Below are positions 1-4,681 of a stretch of DNA of 6,822 nt, one piece after another. The position numbers and the translations under genes are program-made. The stretch lies in the IMG/VR virus record IMGVR_UViG_2778261593_000007, positions 1-6,822 of that record; one strand, written 5' to 3'. This DNA is from a virus (Duplodnaviria > Heunggongvirae > Uroviricota > Caudoviricetes). The notes under the pieces are model-generated. The model was not told the DNA's origin, did not search any database, and was given only the letters and a program-made list of their open reading frames with translations. Numbering within the stretch: position 1 is the first letter of the stretch; each line of letters opens with the position of its first letter.

Positions 1-753
1 CTGAACCACATTATCTGGGCGAAGCCGTCCGGACGCTGGAACGGATGCAACAAGGAAAGCCTGCGGGCGTATTTCCCGGCAACAGAACGCATTCTGTTTG
101 CGGAACATTATCAGGGGCCATACCAGCCCAAAAATGACGGCTATGCGGCAAAGGGGCGCGAGCTAAAACAGCACGTCATGGCCCCGCTGATTTCTTACTT
201 TCGTGATGCGCGTGAATCACTGGGGGTAACATCGAAACAGATAGCGGAAGCCACCGGAAAGAAAAACATGGCGTCACATTGGTTTGGTACCAGTCAGTGG
301 CAGTTGCCGAACGAGGGTGATTACAGAAAACTGCAGGTGTTATTTGCACGTGTAGCGGCAGAAAAGCATCAGCGCGGAGAACTGGAAAAACCACATCACC
401 AGCTGGTCAGCGCATACAGTGAACTGAACCGGCAATATGCCAGTCTGCTGGATGAATACAAATCACTGCGGCGTTATTTTTCCGTATCAGCTGCAGTGCC
501 GTATACGGATGTCTGGACGCACAAGCCCGTGCAGTATTATCCGGGCAAACATCCCTGCGAAAAACCGGCGGATATGTTGCGGCAGATAATAGAGGCCAGC
601 AGTCACCCTGGTGATTTGGTTGCGGATTTCTTTATGGGATCCGGGTCAACAATAAAAGCGGCGATGGCGCTGGGGCGTCGGGTAATCGGCGTTGAGCTTG
701 AAACTGAACGGTTTGAACAGACAGTCGGTGAAATTTCGGCAATGTGCAATTAA
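1..753 (+). CDS. DNA methyltransferase, beta-class N6-adenine/N4-cytosine (N6_N4_Mtase-like); 5' partial, open to window start
   Basis: Frame 1 is open from nt 1 to TAA 751-753, so the first ATG at 178 is internal. C-terminal part has HPCEKPADMLRQII followed by the SAM-binding motif DFFMGSGST, the order seen in beta-class amino-methyltransferases. The catalytic (D/N)PPY motif would lie upstream, outside the window. Confidence 0.8.
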   Translation: MNHIIWAKPSGRWNGCNKESLRAYFPATERILFAEHYQGPYQPKNDGYAAKGRELKQHVMAPLISYFRDARESLGVTSKQIAEATGKKNMASHWFGTSQWQLPNEGDYRKLQVLFARVAAEKHQRGELEKPHHQLVSAYSELNRQYASLLDEYKSLRRYFSVSAAVPYTDVWTHKPVQYYPGKHPCEKPADMLRQIIEASSHPGDLVADFFMGSGSTIKAAMALGRRVIGVELETERFEQTVGEISAMCN

Positions 754-780
754 ACCCGCCTCCATGCGGGTTGTGGTTTT
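753..780. terminator. Putative bidirectional intrinsic terminator between convergent genes
   Basis: Hairpin AACCCGC(753-759)/GCGGGTT(766-772) with loop CTCCAT, followed by GTGGTTTT (T-tract 777-780) on the + strand. It sits immediately after the methyltransferase stop and overlaps the stop of the minus-strand gene ending at 779. Confidence 0.45.
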
Positions 781-1093
781 ATGGGGTTTCAAAACTTGAT
801 TTTGATTGTTTTGAATCTAGGCGGCATGGTAATGAGATGATGCCTCGCCACCCAGGGTATGCTTTCTTAAAATCAGAAATTGCTTGCGGTTTTATTTTCC
901 CTTGCTGGATTTTTTGAAAGTCATCGAAATACAACCCGTATTTTCCACATTTCGGACAGTGAACCCTGACACCATCGGTCATGCCAAAAACACCATCGTT
1001 GTATTCAGTATCAAATTTTAAATTTGTCAGGTCTCTGAAACGCCCGCGCTCCACTTTGGCGTGAGCGTAACATGCTGGACATTGCTGATTCAT
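779..1093 (-). CDS. Hypothetical zinc-ribbon protein (104 aa), moron-like
   Basis: ORF with ATG at 1093-1091 and a GAGG Shine-Dalgarno 7 nt upstream (revcomp of 1101-1104). Two Cys pairs, CPAC near the N-terminus and HCPKCG about 40 residues later, suggest a zinc ribbon. Hand-counted GC is about 40% versus 55-60% in neighbours, and orientation is opposite to the late operon. Confidence 0.6.
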   Translation of the reverse strand: MNQQCPACYAHAKVERGRFRDLTNLKFDTEYNDGVFGMTDGVRVHCPKCGKYGLYFDDFQKIQQGKIKPQAISDFKKAYPGWRGIISLPCRLDSKQSKSSFETP

Positions 1094-1338
1094 CTGAAAA
1101 CCTCTATGAAGAATCGTTACTAATCATTGAAAGCGTCCGGACTTATGACGCCATGTATAACGTAATATTTTTACCAGAAAAAACAACTCGTTAAATCTTT
1201 CATATCCGCGCCGCGCCCGGCGCACATCAAAAAACCACAGAGCCTTTCAGGGGTGAGCTTACGGGATGGTCAGTGTGACTTTCTCTGTGGGCTGGTCACC
1301 CCCGGGCGCAGGCTCACCCACTAAAAGGAAAAGTCACT
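1094..1338. promoter_or_regulatory. Divergent intergenic region with GC-rich hairpin and a long-range inverted repeat in the leader of the downstream gene
   Basis: 245-bp gap between divergently oriented genes. GC hairpin GCGCCG(1208-1213)/CGGCGC(1218-1223). Long-range 8-bp complementary arms GGGTGAGC(1251-1258)/GCTCACCC(1312-1319) lie just upstream of SD AGGA 1326-1329. I could not place convincing sigma70 -35/-10 hexamers by eye. Confidence 0.3.
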
Positions 1339-2661: not shown

Positions 2662-3039
2662 ATGTCGGGTAAATTCAGATTTAGTCGTCGCAGCGAAAAG
2701 AATCTGGAGGGCGTTAAACCACAGCTGGTTGCTGTCGTTCGCCGTGCGCTGGAGCTGACGGAGGTTGATTTCGGTATTACGGAAGGGCTGCGCACGAAAG
2801 AACGCCAGAAACAGCTGGTCGCGGAAGGGAAAAGCCAGACCATGAACAGCCGCCACCTGACCGGTGATGCGGTGGATGTTGTTGCCTGGGTTGGCAGCCA
2901 GGTGTCATGGGACTGGCCTCTGTACGAGAAAATCGCGCAGGCATTTAAGCAGGCTGCCGCAGAGCTGGGAACTGCCATCGAATGGGGCGGGGACTGGAAA
3001 ACACTGAAAGACGGGCCTCACTTTCAGTTGAAACGCTGA
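2662..3039 (+). CDS. Endolysin, peptidase M15 family (L-alanyl-D-glutamate endopeptidase, phage T5 Lys-like)
   Basis: ATG 2662 with SD GAGGTG 2653-2658. N-terminal block SEKNLEGVKPQLVAVVRRALELTEVDFGITEGLRT closely parallels T5 endolysin as recalled. Zinc-ligand motifs SRHLTGDAVD and DGPHFQL are typical of M15/VanY peptidases. GTG 2656 is an alternative start. Confidence 0.85.
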   Translation: MSGKFRFSRRSEKNLEGVKPQLVAVVRRALELTEVDFGITEGLRTKERQKQLVAEGKSQTMNSRHLTGDAVDVVAWVGSQVSWDWPLYEKIAQAFKQAAAELGTAIEWGGDWKTLKDGPHFQLKR

Positions 3040-3053
3040 TAACCAGGTGTGTT

Positions 3054-3236
3054 ATGAGCAGAAAACACTGGACACACAGAATGCCGCGAACGGCGGCGAA
3101 ATGGGCACTGGTAGTGATACTGGTGCCTTTTTTATTGGTGGGATGCGTTAGCCTGGATAAGGCGCGCCAGCTTTTCGATACGGCTTCTCAGGTCTGTGAA
3201 ATTGTCGACGGTGTTCGGCAGTGTCTGCAGAACTGA
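3054..3236 (+). CDS. Small lipoprotein (60 aa), possible o-spanin-like or lysis-associated lipoprotein
   Basis: ATG 3054 with SD AGGTG 3045-3049. Basic N-region, hydrophobic core and lipobox LLVG-C (AAKWALVVILVPFLLVGC). The roughly 29-aa mature part has two Cys. No N-terminal-TM coiled-coil i-spanin partner is detectable. Confidence 0.55.
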   Translation: MSRKHWTHRMPRTAAKWALVVILVPFLLVGCVSLDKARQLFDTASQVCEIVDGVRQCLQN

Positions 3237-3275
3237 TCGCTGACACTCCGCATCTATATTTAAGAGGGTAGATTA

Positions 3276-3404
3276 ATGGAGAAGAAAAATAATCTAAATA
3301 AAAAAGCTGCTGCATCAGCAAATGTAGCAGTTGGCACTCGACTTAATTCAGAATGCTTCGAGAAGATAAATTCTGAATTGTTGGCGCTGTTTGATAAGAC
3401 GTGA
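3276..3404 (+). CDS. Hypothetical small protein (42 aa), AT-rich
   Basis: ATG 3276 with SD GAGG 3264-3267 (8-nt spacer), stop TGA 3402-3404. Translation MEKKNNLNKKAAASANVAVGTRLNSECFEKINSELLALFDKT. A/T-ending codons contrast with the flanking phage genes. Not in the ORF track because it is under 60 aa. Confidence 0.3.
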   Translation: MEKKNNLNKKAAASANVAVGTRLNSECFEKINSELLALFDKT

Positions 3405-3483
3405 AATTGCCGGAAGGCGCAGTCGTTACTGAGTAACAGGCATTACAGCAGCCCTTCACACAGCGATGGGCTGCGATAATGCT

Positions 3484-3684
3484 TTAGTTGTCTTTCATAA
3501 ATCCTTTAATGGCCCATCCCACAAGCCTGATGATGCTGTATACCAACAAGGCAGATATCAGGGAAACAAGGATATCAAACAGTGAAAACCCCCGGGTCTC
3601 TGTTGATAAAAGGCCGAAAATGAACACCAGAATAGCTAACAGAATTCCTACCCGGTGAAAGCCTTTAGAAATCGTGTTTTTCAT
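3484..3684 (-). CDS. Small membrane protein (66 aa, two predicted TM helices), moron-like
   Basis: ATG at 3684-3682 with a strong SD GGAGG (revcomp of 3688-3692). Hydrophobic helices GILLAILVFIFGLL and ILVSLISALLVYSIIRLVGWAI. Hand-counted GC about 41%. Opposite orientation to the late operon, in the position lambda uses for bor. Confidence 0.6.
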   Translation of the reverse strand: MKNTISKGFHRVGILLAILVFIFGLLSTETRGFSLFDILVSLISALLVYSIIRLVGWAIKGFMKDN

Positions 3685-3744
3685 TTGTCCTCCGTATTGT
3701 TTTTTTAAAGGGTGGGAATTTTAACATCAGATGAGTGAAGTTCT
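3685..3744. promoter_or_regulatory. Divergent intergenic region, probable promoters for the minus-strand membrane protein gene and the HNH/packaging genes
   Basis: 60-bp AT-rich spacer with a T7 tract (3698-3704). Weak candidate + strand hexamers TTGTTT (3697-3702) and TAACAT (3721-3726) at 18-bp spacing. Not strong. Confidence 0.25.
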
Positions 3745-4095
3745 ATGCCGTCACGAATCCCCCGCGCATGCCGTAAGCGAGGCTGCGCAGGCACAACAAC
3801 AGACAGCTCTGGCTACTGCGATAAACATCGGGGTGAAGGCTGGGTGCAGCACCAGCGCGGACTGAGCCGCCACCAGCGTGGCTATGGCTCAAAATGGACG
3901 GTGATTCGCGCCCGTATACTGAAGCGCGATAAAGGTCTGTGTCAGTTGTGTCTGCGTGTTGGTGTGGTGAGCGAGGCGAAAACTGTCGACCACATCATCC
4001 CGAAAGCGCATGGCGGAACAGACGCAGACAGCAACCTGCAGAGTCTGTGCTGGCCCTGCCATAAAGCGAAAACAGCGCGCGAACGAATCAGGTGA
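3745..4095 (+). CDS. HNH endonuclease, phage packaging-associated (HK97 gp74-like)
   Basis: N-terminal Cys cluster (CRKRGC...YCDKH) and C-terminal HNH motif DHIIPKAHGGTDADSNLQSLCWPCHKAKT. Located immediately upstream of the terminase small subunit, as in HK97-like phages. Confidence 0.85.
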   Translation: MPSRIPRACRKRGCAGTTTDSSGYCDKHRGEGWVQHQRGLSRHQRGYGSKWTVIRARILKRDKGLCQLCLRVGVVSEAKTVDHIIPKAHGGTDADSNLQSLCWPCHKAKTARERIR

Positions 4096-4210
4096 TAATT
4101 ATTCTCACTTGTGGGGAGGGGCGGGTCAAATCCCTGCAACCCTGGCTGTCCGGGACCGCCCGCCCCGTCAAATTTTTACACCCGCGAAATTAAAAATTTC
4201 AGGATTTGAC
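4096..4210. other. Candidate cos / terminase recognition region between HNH and terminase small subunit genes
   Basis: GC-rich inverted repeat GGGGCGGG(4118-4125)/CCCGCCCC(4159-4166), then a perfect 9-bp AT-rich inverted repeat AAATTTTTA(4170-4178)/TAAAAATTT(4191-4199) just before the terminase small subunit SD and ATG 4211. By analogy with HK97, cos lies between the HNH gene and gene 1. Confidence 0.4.
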
Positions 4211-4681
4211 ATGTCAGGAAAATCTGTTGCGCCCGGAAGAGGGAGAAAGCCGAAGCCGACCACCCGTAAGGAGCTGGCAGGCAATCCCGGCAAGCGGGCA
4301 TTAAATAAGTTTGAGCCAAAATTCACGCCGATCACCCATGCTGACCCTCCCGAGTGGTTTGATGAAACCGCTCGCCATATGTGGGATACCATTATTCGTG
4401 AGCTCTGTGCCCAGCGAGTTCTTTATGTTACTGATTTGCATAATGTCGTTGCATTCTGCACTGCTTTTCGCAACTGGCATGAGTCGCAGCAGGAGGTTAT
4501 GCGCGTTGGGATTACGGTAGAGAGTGAGGCGGGGCCAAAGAAAAACCCGGCACTCACGGCGGCAAATGAGGCCGCCAGACAAATGGTGACATTCGGTAGT
4601 TTATTAGGGCTCGATCCTGCCAGTCGGCAGCGGCTTATGACGCCGAAGCAGGGGAGCGATAATCCATTTAAAAACCTATGA
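4211..4681 (+). CDS. Terminase small subunit (P27/HK97 gp1-like family), 156 aa
   Basis: ATG 4211 with SD AGGA 4201-4204. Basic N-terminus with the GNPGKR motif ([24 protein letters not shown]). Stop overlaps the large subunit start as ATGA. The track ORF 4010-4681 is an in-frame read-through of the intergenic region. Confidence 0.8.

What the first reader, a model, noticed from the sequence alone, without database searches (positions are those of the whole stretch)
779..1093. AT-rich zinc-ribbon moron oriented against the late operon
A 104-aa protein with CPAC and HCPKCG Cys pairs about 40 residues apart, roughly 40% GC, a strong SD, and a shared bidirectional terminator with the methyltransferase gene. 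Its opposite orientation and atypical composition suggest a separately acquired, lysogen-expressed gene. Small zinc-ribbon proteins in phages often act as transcription or translation regulators (Ogr/Delta or Com-like) or nucleic-acid-binding anti-defence factors. I could not match it to a known family by eye.
Basis: partly seen in the sequence, partly recalled or inferred. Interest (0 to 1): 0.5.

Follow-up and report, generated by a model that had tools for sequence, protein, structure and literature searches.

The report
Orphan zinc-ribbon moron in prophage late region
A real but very rare 104-residue four-cysteine (zinc-ribbon) gene sits backwards in a variable cargo slot of an E. coli lambda-like prophage; it defines a tiny, unnamed protein family of unknown function, so it is an ordinary kind of phage accessory gene and not a new system.

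Summary
ORF 779-1093(-) encodes 104 aa with CPAC (residues 5-8) and CPKC (46-49), 41.9% GC against 51% for the window, a GAGG ribosome-binding site, and a hairpin shared with the convergent DNA methyltransferase gene.

It is a real gene:
- dN/dS is 0.28 against an 87%-identical copy.
- Eight significant matches turned up among 1.84 billion representative proteins: five full-length homologues, two frameshifted copies and one repeat artefact.
- All four Cys are invariant down to about 30% identity.
- AlphaFold gives a confident zinc-ribbon core plus two helices (pLDDT 84).

It matches no Pfam, PHROG, NCBIfam or PADLOC family above threshold, and no PDB or viral fold.

The roughly 470-bp cassette is in only 3 of 5,426 complete E. 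coli genomes. Six related prophages were inspected. In them the same methyltransferase-to-TerB slot holds tRNA genes, a toxin-antitoxin-like pair or another ORF.

Wherever context is visible, homologues lie between the Q antiterminator and the lysis genes, antisense to the late operon and AT-rich. They are alone or next to other cargo genes (ECs1072 family, phrog_6315) that also occur without them.

The "moron" reading is supported. Ogr, Com or Lar membership is not. Function remains inferred: probably a lysogen-expressed, protein-binding accessory factor.

The parts
779..1093 (-). Protein-coding gene, 104 aa, Cys4 zinc-ribbon family without a name (RefSeq WP_001075632.1-like, 'hypothetical protein')
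   Evidence: ORF list. Annotated as hypothetical in three E. coli genomes. dN/dS 0.28 vs L002. Homologues. AF2 pLDDT 84.
1070..1081 (-). First zinc knuckle, C5-P-A-C8
   Evidence: C5 and C8 invariant in the 8-sequence alignment A4.
947..958 (-). Second zinc knuckle, C46-P-K-C49, between predicted strands 39-46 and 50-55
   Evidence: C46 and C49 invariant. Secondary structure.
1022..1045 (-). Most conserved motif, G17-RFRDLTN-24 (continuing to F27, D28, Y31, D33, G34, G37): candidate interaction surface
   Evidence: Invariant in the closer subfamily alignment A5. G17, F27 and G37 are invariant family-wide. pLDDT above 90.
1101..1105 (-). Shine-Dalgarno AGAGG, 7 nt upstream of the ATG
   Evidence: Read from the sequence.
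1106..1196 (-). Cassette-specific upstream region that must hold the gene's promoter. Only weak sigma-70 candidates, e.g. TTAACG-N17-AAAAAT (8/12 by eye).
   Evidence: The promoter scan found nothing on the minus strand at 9/12 or better. The region is conserved with L002 but absent from the tRNA-type prophage.
753..772 (.). Hairpin AACCCGC-CTCCAT-GCGGGTT shared by the convergent methyltransferase gene and the ORF. Intrinsic terminator on +, weaker U-tail on -.
728..1196 (.). Extent of the exchanged cargo cassette: last ~8 codons of the methyltransferase, the hairpin, the ORF and its upstream region
   Evidence: Alignment with the tRNA-bearing prophage L003 and with L002. The megablast coverage break at query 499 corresponds to window 1198.

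Best explanation
The ORF is a genuine, autonomously acquired single-gene moron. A ~470-bp AT-rich cassette has replaced the usual cargo (tRNA genes) in the variable slot between the late-expressed DNA methyltransferase gene and the TerB/lysis genes of a lambdoid E. coli prophage. It encodes a compact soluble protein: a Cys4 zinc ribbon (knuckles C5/C8 and C46/C49, three-stranded sheet) packed against two C-terminal helices.

It is transcribed against the Q-dependent late operon. It would therefore be expressed when late transcription is off (in the lysogen or early after infection) and be silenced by convergent, antiterminated late transcription after induction. This step is inferred.

The most likely mode of action is binding of a protein partner through the invariant GRFRDLTN..FD..Y.DG loop and the helical face. 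The role would be that of a prophage accessory factor in phage-phage or phage-host conflict, such as exclusion or modulation of a host or incoming-phage protein. A sequence-specific nucleic-acid regulator is less likely. This step is inferred too.

Shown: gene reality, zinc-ribbon architecture, cassette exchange, recurrent antisense Q-to-lysis location. Inferred: timing of expression, protein-binding mode, conflict role.
For: Real gene: dN/dS 0.28 overall and 0.16 for residues 1-70. Full-length homologues at 31-81% identity have four invariant Cys plus G17, F27, G37 and I86.

Fold: pLDDT 84, pTM 0.72, strands 13-21/39-46/50-55, helices 56-63/70-78. Only generic zinc-ribbon Pfam models hit, all below threshold.

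Cassette: present in 3 of 5,426 complete E. coli genomes. The same slot holds tRNA-Ile/Arg/Arg, tRNA-Ile/Arg, tRNA-Thr/Gly, another ORF or a TA-like pair in relatives.

GC: 41.9% against 51% here, and family genes are AT-rich relative to their loci in every case.

Location: antisense between Q and the holin in L006-8, L009, L015 and L016, and antisense beside a holin in L012, where Q is off the contig.

Autonomy: solo here and in L002, L021 and L022. The neighbouring ECs1072-family and phrog_6315 genes occur without it in ST64B, Klebsiella phages, and Klebsiella, Morganella and Photorhabdus prophages. A strong terminator separates it from the phrog_6315 gene in L012.

Protein-binding over nucleic-acid binding: family pI ranges from 4.8 to 9.2.
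Against: There are no expression data. No sigma-70 consensus promoter was found upstream here or in relatives. No functional homologue exists, so the conflict or protein-binding role is only an inference from position and composition. The window protein itself is basic (pI 9.2, net +6), which is compatible with nucleic-acid binding. Three divergent family members sit directly downstream of a phrog_6315 gene, and two directly upstream of (one overlapping) an ECs1072-family gene. A partner-dependent function therefore cannot be excluded. Frameshifted copies (P0003, P0010) show that the gene is dispensable in some strains.
Confidence: 0.4

Rival explanations
1. It is one subunit (sensor, regulator or antidote) of two-gene prophage cassettes with interchangeable effectors: a membrane protein with two hydrophobic segments (phrog_6315, faintly SLATT-like) or an ECs1072-family protein. 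The window carries an orphaned copy of that subunit.
For: Three family members at 33-47% identity to the window protein lie downstream of phrog_6315 genes in the same order and strand, with spacers of 21-24 nt in two of them. Two members lie immediately upstream of ECs1072-family genes, one with an 8-nt overlap. A fourth neighbour type overlaps in L014. There is a weak SLATT_4 hit for the phrog_6315 protein, E=0.026.
Against: Both partner families occur mostly without the zinc-ribbon gene, in the same kinds of slot. The zinc-ribbon gene is solo in the window lineage under purifying selection. A strong intrinsic terminator lies between the two genes in L012. No PADLOC model hits any component. 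The SLATT hit is far below the 55-bit cut-off.
Confidence: 0.2
2. It is a nucleic-acid-binding regulator of phage gene expression in the manner of Ogr/Delta (transcription activation) or Com (translational activation of a DNA-modification gene). It would act on the adjacent methyltransferase or the late operon.
For: It is a small Cys4 phage protein. The window copy is basic, pI 9.2. It is convergent with a DNA methyltransferase gene here and in L002. One family member gives a Zn_ribbon_Com hit at E=0.033.
Against: No significant similarity to Ogr, Delta or Com. pI is not conserved, and close relatives are acidic at 4.8-5.3. Linkage to the methyltransferase is seen only in the window's own lineage and not in L006, L009, L015 or L016. 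The gene lies downstream and antisense, unlike com-mom. It is absent from about 150 otherwise similar prophages that carry the same TerB-leader region; four of the six relatives inspected also carry the methyltransferase gene.
Confidence: 0.12
3. It is a Lar-like restriction-alleviation (anti-restriction) zinc-ribbon protein that modulates a host restriction-modification enzyme.
For: PF14354 (Lar_restr_allev) is the only named functional family that gives sub-threshold hits spanning both knuckles in three of eight members, E 0.04-0.14. It is a prophage accessory protein next to a DNA methyltransferase gene.
Against: All hits are far below the 28.6-bit gathering score and need a large insertion. 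The BFVD fold search ranks a 'restriction alleviation protein' only 17th, at E=1.1. The protein has an extra conserved C-terminal half that the 58-position Lar profile does not cover. A true PF14354 gene sits elsewhere, in the nin region of L029, which shows the usual location differs.
Confidence: 0.08
4. It is a decaying, functionless hitch-hiker ORF.
For: It is extremely rare: 3 of 5,426 genomes. Frameshifted variants exist. The C-terminal tail 92-104 is disordered and evolves faster, with dN/dS 0.52 for residues 71-104.
Against: Purifying selection on the core, full-length conservation across about 30%-identity homologues, invariant Cys and a confident fold.
Confidence: 0.08

Closest known systems
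Lar (Rac prophage restriction-alleviation protein; Pfam PF14354 Lar_restr_allev)
   Same: A small prophage-encoded accessory protein built on a CxxC...CxxC zinc ribbon. Weak profile hits cover both knuckles in 3 of 8 family members.
   Different: No hit reaches threshold. The protein is about 40 residues longer, with a conserved two-helix C-terminal half and a long conserved insert between the knuckles. Its genomic position differs (late region, antisense). Function was not tested.
Ogr/Delta (P2/P4 late activators) and Com (Mu translational activator of mom)
   Same: Phage Cys4 zinc proteins of 60-100 aa. Com is functionally tied to a DNA-modification gene.
   Different: No sequence or fold similarity was detected. 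pI is not conserved. The gene is convergent with and downstream of the methyltransferase, and the linkage is not conserved across the family.
Lambda bor-type antisense morons and lysogenic-conversion cargo between Q and the lysis genes (from established knowledge: stx and tRNA genes in Stx phages)
   Same: A self-contained AT-rich cassette in the late region, opposite to late transcription, in a slot whose content varies between related prophages.
   Different: The product is a soluble zinc-ribbon protein and not a lipoprotein or toxin. No promoter has been demonstrated.
CpXC (PF14353), YnfU (PF23499 / NF038384) and ECs_2282 (NF047912) small prophage or bacterial zinc-binding proteins of unknown function
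   Same: CPxC...CPxC spacing resembles CpXC (E=0.019, residues 4-54). YnfU and ECs_2282 are small zinc-binding proteins, the former named after an E. coli Qin-prophage gene (from memory).
   Different: All hits are sub-threshold. The YnfU and ECs_2282 hits cover one knuckle only. These families have no known function either.
MqsA N-terminal zinc domain (antitoxin; Cys3/6/37/40, recalled from memory)
   Same: Similar Cys spacing, with a helix after the second knuckle.

Membership tests
Zinc ribbon (structural class) | Two CxxC knuckles contributing four Zn ligands | tested here: met
   C5, C8, C46 and C49 are invariant in 8 sequences down to 30% identity.
Zinc ribbon (structural class) | Three-stranded antiparallel sheet carrying the knuckles | tested here: met
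   The AF2 model has strands 13-21, 39-46 and 50-55, with the second knuckle between strands 2 and 3; pLDDT above 90 there. This is a prediction only, and zinc binding was not measured.
Lar_restr_allev (PF14354) | Profile match at or above the gathering score (28.6 bits) | tested here: not met
   14.5 bits, E=0.042 for the window protein. The best score in the family is below threshold in all 8 members.
Lar_restr_allev (PF14354) | Alleviation of type I restriction | not testable with these tools
   Needs an in vivo restriction assay.
Ogr/Delta late activators | Sequence homology to Ogr/Delta zinc-finger proteins and a role upstream of late operons | tested here: not met
   No Ogr/Delta model appears among Pfam, PHROG or NCBIfam hits at E of 1 or below. 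The gene is absent from about 150 related prophages that carry the same TerB-leader region; the six inspected keep the TerB and late-region genes.
Com (PF10122 Zn_ribbon_Com) | Profile match, and a position upstream of or overlapping the modification gene it activates | tested here: not met
   One of 8 members hits at E=0.033, below threshold. The gene is convergent with and downstream of the methyltransferase.
Moron (autonomous accessory cassette in a prophage) | Present or absent between otherwise collinear phage genomes | tested here: met
   3 of 156 matching E. coli genomes carry it. Others have tRNAs, a TA-like pair or another ORF in the slot.
Moron (autonomous accessory cassette in a prophage) | Atypical base composition | tested here: met
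   41.9% GC against 51%. The same trend holds in all related loci.
Moron (autonomous accessory cassette in a prophage) | Own promoter and terminator, with expression from the repressed prophage | tested here: inconclusive
   A hairpin lies 6 nt after the stop. No consensus promoter was found. There are no expression data.
Known anti-phage defence systems (PADLOC-DB v2) | Match to any defence-protein model | tested here: not met
   No hit at E of 1 or below for the protein or for its neighbours in related loci.
Type II toxin-antitoxin module | Obligate adjacent partner gene | tested here: not met
   The gene is solo here and in L002, L021 and L022. The partner families occur alone elsewhere.

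The most novel reading that the evidence does not exclude
The protein is a promiscuous adaptor, sensor or antidote module. It teams up with unrelated effectors (a SLATT-like two-helix membrane protein, an ECs1072-family protein, others) to form a previously unrecognised family of prophage-encoded exclusion or abortive-infection cassettes. These are parked antisense between Q and the lysis genes. The solo copy in this window would act on effectors or targets supplied in trans.
Probability: 0.12. Interest if true: 0.55.

Novelty: new member of a known kind. Interest (0 to 1): 0.27.

Why it matters
The gene adds an unnamed, very small family of Cys4 zinc-ribbon proteins to the catalogue of lambdoid prophage cargo: about ten 90%-identity clusters among 5.8 billion. 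It has no Pfam, PHROG or NCBIfam model. The work also documents two things about lambdoid late regions:
- The methyltransferase-to-TerB slot is an exchange hot spot.
- The antisense strand of the Q-to-lysis interval is another, and it collects small genes of unknown function (this family, ECs1072 family, phrog_6315, HicAB).

If the protein proves to modulate superinfection, restriction or induction, it would give a handle on these co-located families. As it stands it is a routine orphan moron.

Tried and rejected
1. Family assignment. Pfam, PHROGs, NCBIfam and PADLOC gave only sub-threshold generic zinc-knuckle hits.

2. PDB by sequence profile. The best hit was E=1, to Tim15.

4. tblastn against 50,697 phage genomes found no match, even at E of 1 or below.

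5. GTDB species-representative scans, run twice, and a second IMG/VR scan found no further relatives. The metagenome scan found only two near-identical copies.

6. The phmmer hit to a 2,869-aa protein (P0006, E=2e-9) was rejected. It consists of six identical repeats matching 24 residues of the non-conserved tail.

7. Methyltransferase linkage as a functional clue was rejected, because it is confined to the window lineage.

8. A TA-module reading was rejected, because each neighbour family occurs alone.

9. Promoter scans upstream of the gene here and in four related loci found nothing at 9/12 or better on the right strand.

10. Literature. There is no paper with WP_001075632. ECs1072 appears only in a Sakai microarray table, where it changes 2.1-fold in uninduced cultures. 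The Lar paper that was read gave nothing relevant.

11. Rfam and tRNA scans of the window were empty.

Full report
**Observation.** The window is the late-region start of a lambdoid E. coli prophage. All of the following are on the + strand:
- the C-terminal part of an N6/N4 DNA methyltransferase (ending at 753);
- a TerB-family gene (1339-1764);
- DUF3927, two holins, an M15 endolysin and a spanin-like ORF;
- HNH, the small and large terminase subunits, and the start of the portal gene.

The complete prophage in strain A8 has Q upstream of the methyltransferase.

ORF 779-1093 on the minus strand encodes 104 aa, with CPAC at residues 5-8 and HCPKCG at 45-50. Other features:
- GC is 41.9% (GC3 38%) against 51% for the window.
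- AGAGG lies 7 nt before the ATG.
- A 7-bp hairpin (753-772, -11.5 kcal/mol) sits between the convergent stop codons. It scores as a terminator on the + strand only, and the minus-strand tail is UUUAAUUG.

The description is therefore accurate, with the caveat on "bidirectional".

**Is it a gene?** Yes.
- A copy 87% identical in DNA and 81% in protein (L002) gives dN/dS 0.28, and 0.16 over residues 1-70.
- The word-indexed search of 5.8 billion clusters found only three close clusters.
- Exhaustive phmmer over 1.84 billion representatives found eight hits. Five are full-length proteins of 92-102 aa at 31-48% identity. Two are frameshifted E. coli copies. One is a repeat artefact.
- A profile search added one more homologue, and IMG/VR added two loci.
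- In the 8-sequence alignment the invariant columns are M1, C5, C8, G17, F27, G37, C46, C49 and I86. The closer subfamily shares GRFRDLTN..FD..Y.DG.
- With this shallow alignment AlphaFold2 still gives pLDDT 84 and pTM 0.72. The model has strands 13-21, 39-46 and 50-55, helices 56-63 and 70-78, a short strand at 85-86 and a disordered tail at 92-104. This is a zinc ribbon with a helical extension.

**What it is not.**
- Nothing reaches threshold in Pfam, PHROGs, NCBIfam or PADLOC. The sub-threshold hits are generic zinc-knuckle models. Lar_restr_allev (3 of 8 members, E 0.04 or worse) and CpXC (1 member) are the only ones that span both knuckles.
- No phage genome in INPHARED encodes it.
- No paper mentions its accession.

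**The cassette and its slot.** Megablast of 700-1340 hits 156 complete E. coli genomes, but only three (A8, RM8082, TUM1881) cover the ORF. The rest share only 1198-1340, the leader of the TerB gene. Alignment places the exchanged segment at about 728-1196. In relatives the same slot holds:
- tRNA-Ile/Arg/Arg;
- tRNA-Ile/Arg;
- tRNA-Thr/Gly;
- an unrelated ORF without the methyltransferase;
- a RelE/ParE-like plus regulator pair, in phage PPyecE_EH1910.

The slot is thus an exchange hot spot. Of the seven slot variants examined, this cassette is the only cargo oriented against late transcription.

**Family contexts.** Wherever flanks exist, the homologue lies between the Q antiterminator and the holin on the strand opposite to both: Salmonella L006-8 and L015, IMG/VR L016, and Logan L009. 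In L012 it lies beside a holin on the opposite strand, but Q is off the short contig. It is also AT-rich relative to its locus in every case. Its neighbours vary:
- none, in the window, L002, L021 and L022;
- a downstream ECs1072-family gene (NF033230, phrog_5286), overlapping by 8 nt or 12 nt away;
- an upstream phrog_6315 protein with two hydrophobic segments, in three divergent loci;
- an unrelated overlapping ORF, in L014.

Both named neighbour families are commoner than the zinc-ribbon family, and they occur without it in the same kinds of lysogen-type positions:
- ST64B, where the ORF is unannotated and only the last ~16 nt of the zinc-ribbon ORF are shared, and Klebsiella phages;
- SfIV;
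- Providencia phage PSTNGR2lys;
- Klebsiella aerogenes, Morganella and Photorhabdus prophages.

In L012 a strong terminator separates the phrog_6315 gene from the zinc-ribbon gene. I therefore read the family as an autonomous cargo gene that tends to accumulate with other cargo in this hot spot. I keep a functional pairing as the main rival.

**Mechanism.**
- Shown: a selected, folded Cys4 protein, horizontally exchanged as a cassette, and recurrently antisense in the Q-to-lysis interval.
- Inferred from lambdoid transcription logic (established knowledge of pR'/Q antitermination): in the lysogen no late transcription crosses the gene. After induction, Q-modified polymerase reads through the 753-772 hairpin and across the gene in antisense. 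Expression, if any, should therefore be lysogenic or early.
- Family pI ranges from 4.8 to 9.2. That argues against a conserved nucleic-acid-binding surface and for protein binding through the invariant loop.
- No sigma-70 consensus promoter was found here or in relatives, so expression is unproven.
- I put 0.4 on the full statement. The gene, fold and cassette parts are each above 0.85. The lysogen-expressed protein-binding conflict factor part is about 0.3.
- Rivals: subunit of two-gene cassettes (0.2), Ogr/Com-like regulator (0.12), Lar-like anti-restriction (0.08), functionless remnant (0.08).

**Comparison and novelty.** In kind this is a classical moron encoding a small zinc-ribbon protein, like Lar, YnfU or ECs_2282 as small prophage zinc proteins and bor as an antisense late-region moron. 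Membership in any of those families failed where it was testable. The sequence family is new to the curated libraries but small and rare. I file it as a new member of a known kind, with interest 0.27. The most novel reading not excluded is a promiscuous adaptor for variable effectors in a new exclusion system. I give that about 0.12 probability.

Noticed in passing
window 1240-1315 (+), just upstream of the TerB-family gene's ribosome-binding site: A long, stable hairpin (-40.9 kcal/mol over 1228-1325, z=-2.8 against shuffles) built from nested inverted repeats. It lies in the leader that is conserved in about 150 E. coli prophages. There is no Rfam match. It could be a regulatory leader or processing site for the TerB/lysis transcript.
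   Followed up: partly
window 3484-3684 (-), within the lower-GC stretch 3240-3700: A second antisense small ORF of 66 aa, with two hydrophobic segments by eye, between the spanin-like ORF and the HNH gene. It is annotated as hypothetical (WP_001542814.1) in strain A8 and has no PHROG or PADLOC match. It looks like another moron.
   Followed up: partly
L017 (Salmonella phage ST64B NC_004313) 3281-3715 (+ in locus): An unannotated 144-aa ECs1072-family ORF lies between the holin and Q, antisense to them. The record instead annotates sb50 on the opposite strand, overlapping its 3' end. Just upstream, about 16 nt match the 3' end of the zinc-ribbon ORF of L015.
   Followed up: partly
L003, L030, L031, L032, L033 (slot equivalent to window 728-1196): The methyltransferase-to-TerB slot is a cargo hot spot. 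It holds three different tRNA sets, an unrelated ORF, or a RelE/ParE-like plus regulator pair.
   Followed up: yes
L023-L025 (Klebsiella aerogenes prophage) 2946-4486: HicA/HicB and a phrog_6315 gene sit together on the antisense strand between the holin and Q. This shows that the interval collects several independent accessory modules. In Morganella the same family sits antisense next to the cI-type repressor.
   Followed up: partly
P0003 and P0010 (E. coli proteins): These are frameshifted derivatives of the gene, with the N-terminus or middle read in another frame. Some strains therefore carry decaying copies.
   Followed up: no
L016 7883-7904 and 8946-8968 (- strand); L015 8942-8964 (-) and 8777-8799 (+): The antisense two-gene cassette is bracketed by intrinsic terminators in the late-operon direction. 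In L015 it also carries its own terminator after the ECs1072-family gene. This fits insertion of a self-contained unit downstream of tR'.
   Followed up: no
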